64,000 nt of DNA, taken from assembly GCA_000165345.1 (NCBI GenBank), contig CM000432.1:1040418-1104417 (forward strand), in the 5' to 3' direction. Below are positions 61,001-64,000 of the stretch, piece after piece. Made by a program: the position numbers. The first letter of the stretch is position 1. The number at the start of each line of letters is the position of its first letter.

Positions 61001-64000
61001 GAATAACCGTCATTTTTATTGGCAGTTGGTTTTTTCTTATAAAATTTGATATATCAAAGAAACGACACGTCGCTTGTTGTTTCAATTACAGAATTCAAAT
61101 AGAGATGATTTTATTCAGATTATGTATTATCTTTTCCATATTGGAAAGATTTCTTGATGTTTCTAAAAACAATAGTCTTGTTTTTTTTCATTCATATTGT
61201 TATCAATAAATTTGAATATTTGGTATTCACAAATTTAATTGTTTAAAGTTATTTTATTTACTGTTTATTAATTGGTATTGATTAAAATTACTTTTGCACT
61301 AGTAATATTTCAAGTTTATTCTAACGTAATTATTTTAGAATTCTGAAGATGAATCTAGTCAATTAGCAAATTCGATTTGTGAATATCTTGAAAGAGTATT
61401 GCCACTAAAACAAGTGTTTCATTTTTCAAGTTATTACTAGTTCAGAAATATTTATCTACTCCAAAGATTTCAGCAACATAATTTTAACAATTGTTAAATA
61501 TTTCAGATTTTTTTGACTGAATTAATACTGGAATAATTTATTAATACTCGAAAATTAGAAATTTTCATTTTTACATAGTAATTATGCATTATAAATCTAG
61601 TTTTCTTCCTATAATTCTTTTCTATTTGTTTTTAGCTAGAGTTATTTTTAATTGAGCTTAGTTCCTAAGACAACTAGGTTCAACAATAACATAAACGAAT
61701 ATTTCAAGTTTCTATTAAGGAATTTGTAATTTCTCAGAATTTATATTTAAGAAGTATTATTTTTTTGTTTTATATAGATATTAATTTTTTTTGAATTTAA
61801 TTTTTTCAAAGCTACCTAAAATAATATAACAATCCATTTAAATTCACTGCATTATTTTCTAGTCAAAAATTGAATCATGATAATCAATTTCTCAAGATAC
61901 TTAATTTTGATTAAAGTTCAGTTTCAAGCAGATTCTTATAAAAAAAATGATAGGACTACATTTTTATGATGGGCACATACTACAAAGTATTCAGTACTAA
62001 ATATCCAATCTACATCAAAGCTAGTATTTTAAATTTTGATAAAATAGGAAAAAAGTCAAGTAAAACCAAATATTACTAGGCCTAGTTCTTATTAGTATTT
62101 GGAATTAACAGCGCTAAACTTAATAAACCTGCGAATTGCATTAAAACCCCATTAGACATTAAGTCTTTCTTTAATTTCCATATGGTCATAGTTCCCACTT
62201 GATTTACTCGATGAAGAGCCATCTGCAAAAGGAAATAAAAACTCAAAGATTGGCTTTGTCTGTTAAGCAACTTACCACTATTTTCACGTTTCAATAGTTT
62301 CCATTCAGTTTTATCGGAAACATCAGATTTCACCTCTTTTGGAAGTGCATAGAATCGATTGGTAGAATAAATACTAGCTCTATCGTTGGCCTACAAAAGA
62401 TAATAAATTAACTTAACACTAGTTTATTCCAACTTACAGACAAAAGAGTAAATCCTGTCTTATAGAAGTCAAAGATAAATGAGCATGGCGAAATTATGAA
62501 ACTTTTTTTAAGGGATCGAGTATCAATTGTTTCTGTATTATAATCAGTATTTATTCTAAATTTTACCAAGATTAAAACTTACGTGAATTGTTTCCACAGG
62601 AAACTGTGACTTTATTTCCTGTTCCATCACAGTAGACTTTACCGAATAAGGTTTGTTCATTAATCACACAATCGAATGTATAAGTAGATGTTTGAACCGT
62701 AAAACTTTTGTAAGCACCTAATTCATAATTTTCGTACAAGCCGGCAGCAGCATCTGGAATTTGAACGGTACTTGCTGAGCAAGAGTAGCTAAAAGCAGCT
62801 GGGCTAAGGGTACATACACTTTCGGTTAATCCCATTTTCTCTTTTGAGTTTAATTCACCAATTTTACGTTAATTATGTACTATTGAAGAAGTGAAAGTCA
62901 AGCTGATTTTTTTTTTTGGTTTGAATTTTGGTGGAGACATGACATGATGTATTAAAAAAAACATGCACCTTTTCAAAAGATTGCCGGCAAAATTTTAACA
63001 TGCATTTCGTTACTTGCAGTCGCTATTTTCACACAAACGGCGCCACGCTCTCCTTGAATTTTCAATAATTCAGGTTTTAGGTTTAGGTTTAGGTTTAGGT
63101 TTAGGGGTTTAGGTTTAGGTTTAGGTTTAGGTTTAGGTTTTAGGGTTTAGGTTTAGGTTTAGGGGTTTTAGGTTTAGGGGTTTTAGGTTTTAGGGGGTTT
63201 AGGTTTAGGTTTAGGTTTAGGTTTAGGGTTTAGGGTTTTAGGTTTAGGTTTAGGTTTAGGGTTTAGGTTTAGGTTTAGGTTTAGGTTTAGGTTTTAGGTT
63301 TAGGTTTTTAGGTTTAGGTTTTAGGGTTTTAGGTTTAGGTTTAGGTTTAGGTTTAGGGTTTAGGTTTAGGTTTAGGTTTAGGTTTAGGTTTAGGTTTAGG
63401 GTTTTAGGTTTAGGTTTTAGGTTTAGGTTTAGGTTTAGGTTTAGGTTTTAGGTTTAGGGTTTTAGGTTTTAGGTTTAGGTTTACGTTTAGGGTTTAGGGT
63501 TTAGGGTTTAGGTTTAGGTTTAGGTTTAGGTTTAGGTTTAGGGTTTAGGTTTTAGGTTTAGGTTTAGGTTTTAGGGTTTTAGGGTTTAGGTTTAGGTTTT
63601 AGGTTTAGGGGGTTTAGGGTTTAGGTTTTAGGTTTAGGTTTAGGTTTAGGTTTTAGGGTTTTAGGGGTTTAGGTTTAGGTTTAGGGGTTTAGGTTTAGGT
63701 TTAGGTTTAGGTTTAGGTTTAGGTTTAGGTTTAGGTTTAGGTTCCCGCCTAGGTTTAGGTTTAGGGTTTAGGTTTAGGTTTAGGTTTAGGGTTTAGGTTT
63801 AGGTTTAGGGTTTAGGTTTTAGGGTTTAGGTTTAGGTTTAGGTTTAGGGGGGTTTTAGGGTTTTAGGGTTTAGGTTTAGGTTTAGGTTTAGGGCCTCCCC
63901 CCCCCCCCCGGGTTTAGGTTTAGGTTTAGGTTTAGGTTTAGGGGTTTAGGGTTTTGGGGCTCCCCCTAGAGTCGACCCGCCAGGCCAGCCAAGGACCTGG

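What the first reader, a model, noticed from the sequence alone, without database searches (positions are those of the whole stretch)
63073..64000. The window ends in a chromosome terminus: a TTTAGG telomere capped by a poly-C tract and a degraded pUC polylinker
About 0.9 kb of TTTAGG repeats run to the window end with the G-rich strand 5' to 3'. The last 35 nt read as an error-laden BamHI-XbaI-SalI-PstI-SphI-HindIII multiple cloning site (…CTAGAGTCGACccgccagg…), and a 13-nt C run interrupts the array at 63897. This looks like a telomere captured from a plasmid clone with low-quality vector read-through that was never trimmed. If so, the true telomere length and its terminal units are not represented. 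The many repeat variants (TTTAGGG, TTTTAGG, TTTACG, GGTTCCCGCCTAGG) may be partly base-calling error rather than biology.
Basis: partly seen in the sequence, partly recalled or inferred. Interest (0 to 1): 0.7.

Follow-up and report, generated by a model that had tools for sequence, protein, structure and literature searches.

The report
Real telomere ending in untrimmed cloning vector
The window ends in a genuine Cryptosporidium parvum chromosome 4 telomere (TTTAGG repeats), but its last 45 bases are badly read pUC cloning-vector sequence and the odd C-rich patches are base-calling errors, so this is an ordinary telomere with an old assembly artefact on its end.

Summary
About 128 units of T3-5AG2-6 (80 exact TTTAGG) run from 63075 to 63955, with the G-rich strand pointing at the window end. 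There is no such array anywhere else in the window.

The flanking genes (DHFR-TS and neighbours) and 99.95-99.99% identity to three C. parvum IOWA chromosome 4 assemblies show this is the right end of chromosome 4. TTTAGG is the published Cryptosporidium telomere repeat.

The last 45 nt (63956-64000) align to the pUC18/19 (M13mp) polylinker, starting exactly at the SmaI half-site. 34 of 40 vector bases match, and no shuffle out of 2000 reached the score. Eight of the 11 discrepancies are a C in the window. This tail is absent from the other assemblies.

The C13 tract is not a cap, because 43 nt of telomere follow it. The three C-bearing anomalies are 6, 12 and 19 nt long, equal to 1, 2 and 3 repeat units. 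All 16 of their non-C bases fit an in-register TTTAGG array, so they are C over-calls.

The run-length variants (TTTAGGG, TTTTAGG and similar) are largely real. An independent nanopore plus MiSeq assembly (CpBGF) reproduces the first 217 bp exactly, including 12 variant units.

Verdict: a known telomere with an unremoved sequencing artefact. Interest is low.

The parts
63075..63955 (+). Telomeric repeat array (T3-5 A G2-6)n of Cryptosporidium parvum chromosome 4, with the G-rich strand running 5'->3' toward the end. It has 128 parsable units, 80 of them canonical TTTAGG.
   Evidence: The same junction and the same first 60-217 bp are present in three other assemblies.
63052..63074 (+). Subtelomere-telomere junction (CCTTGAATTTTCAATAATTCAGG), the last unique sequence before the array.
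   Evidence: It is found unchanged directly before the telomere in L001, L002, L007 and the short-read contig L003.
63075..63291 (+). Proximal 217 bp of the array, whose variant-unit pattern (12 non-canonical units) is independently reproduced.
   Evidence: It is identical base for base to CpBGF (L001), an ONT + MiSeq assembly that differs from the window at about 10 positions elsewhere in 18 kb.
63480..63485 (+). TTTACG: one repeat unit with a single G->C miscall.
   Evidence: Its length equals one unit and 5 of 5 non-C bases match TTTAGG.
63742..63753 (+). TTCCCGCCTAGG: two repeat units with five in-register substitutions to C.
   Evidence: Its length equals two units and 7 of 7 non-C bases match TTTAGGTTTAGG.
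63894..63912 (+). CCTCCCCCCCCCCCCCGGG (C13 at 63897-63909): three repeat units overwritten by C calls.
   Evidence: 19 nt = 6+6+7, and 4 of 4 non-C bases match TTTAGGTTTAGGTTTAGGG. There is no better-than-chance match to pUC or pBluescript (78/500 and 186/500 shuffles reach the score). The tract is not present in L001, L002 or L007.
63956..64000 (+). Degraded pUC18/19 (M13mp18/19) polylinker: SmaI half-site GGG, then BamHI, XbaI, SalI, PstI, SphI and HindIII. This is untrimmed vector.
   Evidence: It is absent from all fetched loci.
62572..62835 (-). Last open reading frame before the telomere (87 aa). It lies inside the last called gene of the other assemblies (177 or 218 aa, minus strand).

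Best explanation
This is the natural right-hand telomere of Cryptosporidium parvum (IOWA lineage) chromosome 4. Telomerase adds a somewhat irregular repeat, T3-5AG2-6 (mostly TTTAGG), to the 3' G-rich strand. The sequence as recorded comes from Sanger reads of a plasmid clone whose blunt-ended insert was ligated into the SmaI site of a pUC/M13mp-type polylinker. The insert stops at 63955, in the middle of a unit (...GGGTTTT). The 45 nt that follow are the polylinker, read at very low quality and never trimmed. The same error process calls C over the true base. It produced three in-register patches inside the distal array of 1, 5 and 15 bases, the last of which is the 'poly-C tract'. Shown here: the array, its position at a chromosome end, the vector match, the absence of tail and poly-C in other assemblies, and the exact reproduction of the proximal variants. 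Inferred: that the window comes from the 2004 Sanger reference, that the clone was a random shotgun clone, and the physical cause of the C over-calls.
For: The array and its orientation are shown. Organism and chromosome follow from exact protein matches on >1 Mb contigs of C. parvum assemblies GCA_035232765.1, GCA_031892065.1 and GCA_015245375.1, always at a contig end next to DHFR-TS, and from 99.95-99.99% identity over 18-20 kb. TTTAGG is the published Cryptosporidium telomere repeat (PMC8848321, which cites Liu et al. 1998; PMC4407392; PMC12179316). For the vector, 34 of 40 polylinker bases match, starting exactly at GGGGATCC directly after the last telomeric T, and 8 of 11 discrepancies are C in the window. 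No shuffle out of 2000 reached the score. There is a 12-nt exact XbaI-SalI match against 0.07 expected. pUC scores higher than pBluescript, pGEM-T, pCR4-TOPO and a RACE anchor primer. For the C patches, the lengths are 6, 12 and 19 nt, and 16 of 16 non-C bases fit in-register repeats. Every C in the array lies in these three patches. The patches grow toward the end. The variants are real because the window and CpBGF share 217 bp of telomere exactly, all four assemblies share the first 60 bp including TTTAGGGG at unit 5, and every assembly has 22-38% variant units of the same kinds. Variant density in the window is flat along the array at 0.23-0.45 per 150 bp. The 2004 reference was built from Sanger reads of a random shotgun (PMC8744675, PMC2447187).
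Against: No trace files or read placements are available, so neither the single-read origin nor the cause of the C calls is observed directly. The 6+6+7 parse of the poly-C patch was chosen after the fact, and variable unit lengths make 'in register' a weak test for that patch. Other assemblies cannot be compared beyond 217 bp: CpBGF decays into CCCAGG nanopore miscalls, and telomeres differ between parasite lines. They therefore do not strictly exclude a real C tract in the 2004 isolate. The identity of the window's source assembly is inferred, not looked up.
Confidence: 0.9

Rival explanations
1. The poly-C patch is a second vector or clone junction, such as a chimeric clone or a mis-join of two vector-containing reads, rather than in-register miscalls.
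For: GGGCCTCCC... begins like the degraded terminal GGGGCTCCCCC, and CCCGGG is a SmaI site.
Against: The 26-nt core matches pUC or pBluescript no better than shuffles do (78/500 and 186/500 reach the score). Its length equals three repeat units and its T and GGG fall where the repeat predicts. The smaller patches at 63480 and 63742 show the same to-C substitutions and cannot be junctions.
Confidence: 0.07
2. The end was obtained by a telomere-capture protocol: terminal-transferase C-tailing of the natural 3' end, followed by an oligo-dG anchor primer. On this view the C runs and the SalI-containing tail are tail plus anchor primer.
Against: pUC scores 38 under the same scheme. It also explains the junction GGGGATCC, the exact CTAGAGTCGACC and the PstI-SphI-HindIII remainder. 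The C13 run is followed by 43 nt of further telomere rather than by a primer. The high score of the primer against the poly-C core is only homopolymer against homopolymer.
Confidence: 0.03
3. The C13 tract, TTCCCGCC and the terminal 45 nt are genuine genomic sequence of the sequenced isolate, for example a healed break or a non-telomeric cap.
For: Other assemblies cannot be compared base by base beyond 217 bp, and telomeres vary between lines.
Against: The tail matches a synthetic polylinker, with six restriction sites in the correct order, starting at a blunt-cloning half-site. None of three other assemblies of this end has it. Outside CpBGF's nanopore miscalls, no C occurs in the G-strand of the other telomeres.
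Confidence: 0.01

Closest known systems
Cryptosporidium TTTAGG telomere (Liu et al. 1998, Mol Biochem Parasitol 94:291, cited in PMC8848321; used to find telomeres in PMC8848321, PMC4407392 and PMC12179316)
   Same: It has the same repeat unit and the same position at a chromosome end, with the G-rich strand running 5'->3' outward. The same chromosome 4 end carries a telomere in the CpIOWA-ATCC, CpBGF and CP029783 assemblies.
   Different: Nothing biological differs. This copy carries sequencing artefacts at its distal end.
Untrimmed cloning-vector contamination of Sanger-era assemblies (the kind of sequence UniVec/VecScreen is meant to catch)
   Same: The polylinker starts at the cloning half-site, sits at the extreme end of a contig, and is absent from independent assemblies.
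   Different: It is so degraded (about 15% of vector bases wrong, plus five inserted bases) and so short (45 nt) that a standard vector screen would probably miss it. That last point is my inference.
Degenerate apicomplexan telomere repeats such as Plasmodium TT(T/C)AGGG (own knowledge)
   Same: A sizeable fraction of units is non-canonical within a real telomere.
   Different: Here the variation is in T-run and G-run length (T3-5, G2-6), not a base substitution within the unit.
Nanopore repeat-calling errors at telomeres (PMC9414165 / bioRxiv 10.1101/2022.01.11.475254)
   Same: It is a second example, in the related locus L001, of telomere repeats being systematically miscalled (TTTAGG written as CCCAGG).
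   Different: That is a different technology and a different assembly. The window's own errors are Sanger-type C over-calls.

Membership tests
Eukaryotic telomere (Cryptosporidium TTTAGG type) | Long tandem array of the species' telomeric repeat | tested here: met
   There are 128 units, 80 of them exact TTTAGG. The 12-mer occurs 79 times against 0.02 expected.
Eukaryotic telomere (Cryptosporidium TTTAGG type) | Lies at the physical end of the chromosome with the G-rich strand 5'->3' toward the end | tested here: met
   The array runs to the window end on the + strand. The same locus sits at the contig end in three chromosome-scale assemblies.
Eukaryotic telomere (Cryptosporidium TTTAGG type) | Same subtelomere-telomere junction in independent samples | tested here: met
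   The junction is identical in L001, L002, L007 and L003, and the first 60 bp of the array are shared by the four chromosome-scale assemblies.
Eukaryotic telomere (Cryptosporidium TTTAGG type) | Terminal location shown physically (Bal31 sensitivity, 3' overhang) | not testable with these tools
   This needs wet-lab work.
pUC18/19 or M13mp18/19 polylinker (vector contamination) | Significant alignment to the polylinker, with the sites in the correct order | tested here: met
   34 of 40 vector bases match, in the order BamHI-XbaI-SalI-PstI-SphI-HindIII. No shuffle out of 2000 reached the score. The reference sequence was verified in plasmid records.
pUC18/19 or M13mp18/19 polylinker (vector contamination) | Starts at a cloning site directly at the insert boundary | tested here: met
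   GGGGATCC, the SmaI half-site followed by BamHI, begins at 63956 immediately after the last telomeric TTTT.
pUC18/19 or M13mp18/19 polylinker (vector contamination) | Absent from independent assemblies of the same locus | tested here: met
   CTAGAGTCGAC was not found in any of the six loci held when one search was run. L001, L002 and L007, as far as it was fetched (121 bp of that contig end were not fetched), consist of repeats only.
pUC18/19 or M13mp18/19 polylinker (vector contamination) | Better match than other common vectors or adaptors | tested here: met
   Local alignment scores were pUC 38, pGEM-T 34 (in the wrong topology for an insert-to-vector junction), pBluescript 28, pCR4-TOPO 16 and RACE anchor primer 20.
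pUC18/19 or M13mp18/19 polylinker (vector contamination) | Formal UniVec/VecScreen hit | not testable with these tools
   No UniVec database is available here. I used a local alignment instead.

The most novel reading that the evidence does not exclude
The irregular units are genuine products of an imprecise Cryptosporidium telomerase (T3-5AG2-6, with a quarter to a third of units non-canonical). The proximal roughly 200 bp would then form a heritable, line-specific 'barcode'. It is identical between this Sanger-era sequence and the BGF line sequenced in 2019-2020 (PMC12179316, Table 1). It diverges after 60-67 bp in the ATCC and CP029783 assemblies. Such a barcode could serve as a lineage marker for laboratory IOWA lines.
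Probability: 0.55. Interest if true: 0.25.

Novelty: already known. Interest (0 to 1): 0.1.

Why it matters
The practical value is small but real. Users of this assembly should trim 63956-64000. They should treat 63480-63485, 63742-63753 and 63894-63912 as miscalled TTTAGG units. They should not read the roughly 880 bp as the telomere length or 64000 as the chromosome terminus. Telomere-finding scripts, vector screens and primer design against this end could all be misled otherwise. The run-length variants should not be 'corrected' away, because at least the proximal ones are real. There is no new biology here.

Tried and rejected
(1) pBluescript II, pGEM-T and pCR4-TOPO polylinkers as the source of the tail all scored lower than pUC. 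pGEM-T matched only through the shared SalI-PstI core, and in an orientation inconsistent with an insert-to-vector junction.

(2) A 5'-RACE abridged anchor primer or C-tailing origin scored 20 against 38 for pUC. Its high score against the poly-C core is only homopolymer matching.

(3) The poly-C as a vector junction gave no better-than-chance match to pUC or pBluescript.

(4) An error gradient in the run-length variants was not found. Variant density is flat along the array.

(5) The listing of cluster members on the 938-aa protein returned 'not in the collection' and gave no names.

(6) The Abrahamsen 2004 Science paper is not held. A literature search for the library vector used in the project found only that it was a random shotgun, so the pUC/SmaI library is inferred from the sequence alone.

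(7) Short-read Logan contigs reach at most 101 bp into the telomere. The one that does, L003 from DRR729207, has a different proximal pattern, so it could not test the distal anomalies.

Full report
**What is in the sequence**

From 63075 to 63955 the + strand is a tandem array of TTTAGG-like units. TRF reports period 6, 126 copies, consensus TTTAGG. A parse with T{3,}AG{2,} accounts for 840 of the 885 bases from 63071 to 63955 as 128 units. Of these, 80 are exact TTTAGG. The rest differ only in run length, with T-runs of 3-5 and G-runs of 2-6.

TTTAGGTTTAGG occurs 79 times, all on the + strand and all inside 63076-63942, against 0.02 expected by chance. There are no interstitial copies elsewhere in the 64 kb. 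The C13 run at 63897-63909 is the only run of 10 or more C in the window. CTAGAGTCGACC sits at 63966-63977.

**Which organism and where**

The window has 24-36% G+C measured in 2-kb windows. ORFs near the end are encoded, with identical protein sequence, on contigs over 1 Mb in three Cryptosporidium parvum assemblies:
- GCA_035232765.1, record CP141121.1, which is CpBGF (see PMC12179316)
- GCA_031892065.1, record CP029783.1
- GCA_015245375.1, record CP044419.1, which is CpIOWA-ATCC

In each case the locus lies at the very end of the contig, next to DHFR-TS, an amino-acid transporter and an ABC transporter. DNA identity to the window over 18-20 kb is 99.95-99.99%.

All three assemblies agree with each other and differ from the window at 53666-53667. 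The window is therefore a separate assembly of the same lineage. Because it carries plasmid vector, it is most likely the Sanger-era 2004 IOWA II reference, chromosome 4. That assembly was built from Sanger reads of a random shotgun (PMC8744675, PMC2447187). This attribution is an inference.

TTTAGG is the published Cryptosporidium telomere repeat (PMC8848321, which cites Liu et al. 1998; PMC4407392; PMC12179316 gives it as CCTAAA/AGGTTT).

**The terminal 45 nt are vector**

The array stops at ...TTTAGGGTTTT (63955). What follows is GGGGCTCCCCCTAGAGTCGACCCGCCAGGCCAGCCAAGGACCTGG. Aligned to the pUC19 polylinker from the SmaI half-site (GGGGATCCTCTAGAGTCGACCTGCAGGCATGCAAGCTTGG), 34 of 40 vector bases match in 45 columns. 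The order is BamHI, XbaI, SalI, PstI, SphI, HindIII. No shuffle out of 2000 reached the local alignment score.

It is found at 100% identity over positions 19-114 in plasmid records.

Other candidates score lower under the same scheme:

| Candidate | Local alignment score | Comment |
|---|---|---|
| pUC18/19 | 38 | explains the junction and all six sites |
| pGEM-T | 34 | shared SalI-PstI core only, in the wrong orientation for an insert-to-vector junction |
| pBluescript | 28 | |
| RACE anchor primer | 20 | |
| pCR4-TOPO | 16 | |

The four G's directly after the last telomeric T are exactly what a SmaI-cut pUC arm contributes. The insert was therefore blunt-ligated into SmaI, which is standard for sheared shotgun libraries (own knowledge). 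The break falls in the middle of a unit, so 63955 is an arbitrary or polished end. It is not demonstrably the natural terminus.

The distance from SmaI to the M13 -20 primer in pUC18 is 41 nt by my count of the remembered sequence. The tail may therefore be the unreadable first bases of a reverse-direction read just as well as the dying end of a forward read. I cannot tell which.

None of the loci held when one search was run contains CTAGAGTCGAC. L001 and L002 end in repeats, and L007 shows repeats only as far as it was fetched, which stops 121 bp short of that contig's end.

**The poly-C tract is not a cap**

It is followed by 43 nt of ordinary repeats. All 21 C's in the repeat array (63075-63955) fall in three patches:

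| Patch | Sequence | Length (nt) | Repeat units | Non-C bases matching an in-register TTTAGG array |
|---|---|---|---|---|
| 63480-63485 | TTTACG | 6 | 1 | 5 of 5 |
| 63742-63753 | TTCCCGCCTAGG | 12 | 2 | 7 of 7 |
| 63894-63912 | CCTCCCCCCCCCCCCCGGG | 19 | 3 | 4 of 4 |

Together these patches amount to 21 substitutions to C, no substitution to any other base, and no change of length.

The patches grow toward the end: 1, 5 and then 15 bases. Eight of the 11 discrepancies in the vector tail are also a C in the window. A single error process, a spurious C call over the true base, explains all of it. Inserted foreign DNA would not preserve register and residual bases.

The poly-C core matches pUC or pBluescript no better than shuffles do. 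One caveat applies: the 6+6+7 parse of the largest patch was chosen after the fact.

**The run-length variants are mostly real**

Taking the telomere from the shared junction in each assembly:
- The window and CpBGF are identical for the first 217 bp. That is 33 units, including the striking cluster TTTAGGGG TTTTAGG TTTAGGGG TTTTAGG TTTTAGGGGG.
- All four chromosome-scale assemblies share the first 60 bp, including TTTAGGGG at unit 5.
- Every assembly has 22-38% non-canonical units of the same kinds.

CpBGF is an ONT assembly polished with MiSeq reads (PMC12179316), and it differs from the window at about 10 positions in the adjacent 18 kb. I therefore regard it as independent. The abrupt change at 217 bp from perfect agreement to nanopore-type miscalls fits the reach of anchored short reads (inference).

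Within the window, variant density is flat along the array at 0.23-0.45 per 150 bp. It is 0.39 in the validated proximal part, which argues against a quality gradient. Beyond 63291 the variants cannot be checked individually.

**Mechanism**

The biology is that of an ordinary telomere. Telomerase extends the 3' G-rich strand with a short templated repeat. Variable T and G run lengths are what slippage or variable template use would give (inference from general telomerase knowledge). Proximal repeats are inherited unchanged within a line, while distal ones turn over. That fits the shared 60-bp and 217-bp prefixes.

Everything unusual about this copy comes from how it was sequenced.

**Comparison with what is known, and novelty**

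The telomere repeat, its presence at this chromosome end and the incompleteness of telomeres in the 2004 reference are all published. Vector read-through is a familiar artefact. I found no paper mentioning this particular residue, but it is a curation note and not a discovery.

The only mildly new point is that the proximal variant pattern is stable and line-specific.

**Verdict**

This is a real, known telomere with 45 nt of untrimmed pUC polylinker and three patches of C miscalls. Interest is about 0.1.

Noticed in passing
L001:18575-18920 (CpBGF T2T assembly, GCA_035232765.1 CP141121.1, chromosome 4 end): About 340 bp of this published 'telomere-to-telomere' telomere read GGCCCAGGCCCAGG... 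instead of TTTAGG, starting just after the first ~220 bp that agree with the window. It looks like the systematic nanopore repeat-calling error described for telomeres (PMC9414165), left uncorrected where short reads could no longer be anchored.
   Followed up: partly
window 53666-53667: The window reads ...GATAAACAAAATTG..., whereas CpBGF, CP029783 and CpIOWA-ATCC all read ...GATAAATCAAATTG.... This is a window-specific dinucleotide difference just downstream of the 409-aa gene, probably an error in this assembly.
   Followed up: partly
window 60054-60354 (inside the 689-aa ORF 58714-60783, + strand): A 69-bp tandem repeat (4.4 copies, 83% matches) encodes proline-rich repeats (…RRAPPPPAHPxYSVKTEAQKPxK…). 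The protein is serine- and proline-rich, has no Pfam hit on record, and is the second-last gene before the telomere.
   Followed up: no
window 56880-57160 (inside the 938-aa ORF 54719-57535, + strand): A long low-complexity stretch encodes SRSKSRSK/TRSRSR dipeptide repeats in a protein with a hydrophobic N-terminus and no Pfam hit on record.
   Followed up: no
L003:1-105 (Logan contig from run DRR729207): It has the same subtelomere and junction, but the telomere diverges from all other assemblies after 10 bp and 77% of its units are non-canonical. This is either a different isolate or a noisy assembly of the repeat.
   Followed up: no
window 51811-52096 and 54054-54071: Seven single-base indels separate the window from CpBGF in intergenic DNA. 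The window has an extra T or A at 51811, 51872, 51938 and 52096, and CpBGF has three extra T's at 54054-54071. CP029783 shows none at these positions and CpIOWA-ATCC aligns without gaps, so these are probably residual nanopore errors in CpBGF.
   Followed up: partly
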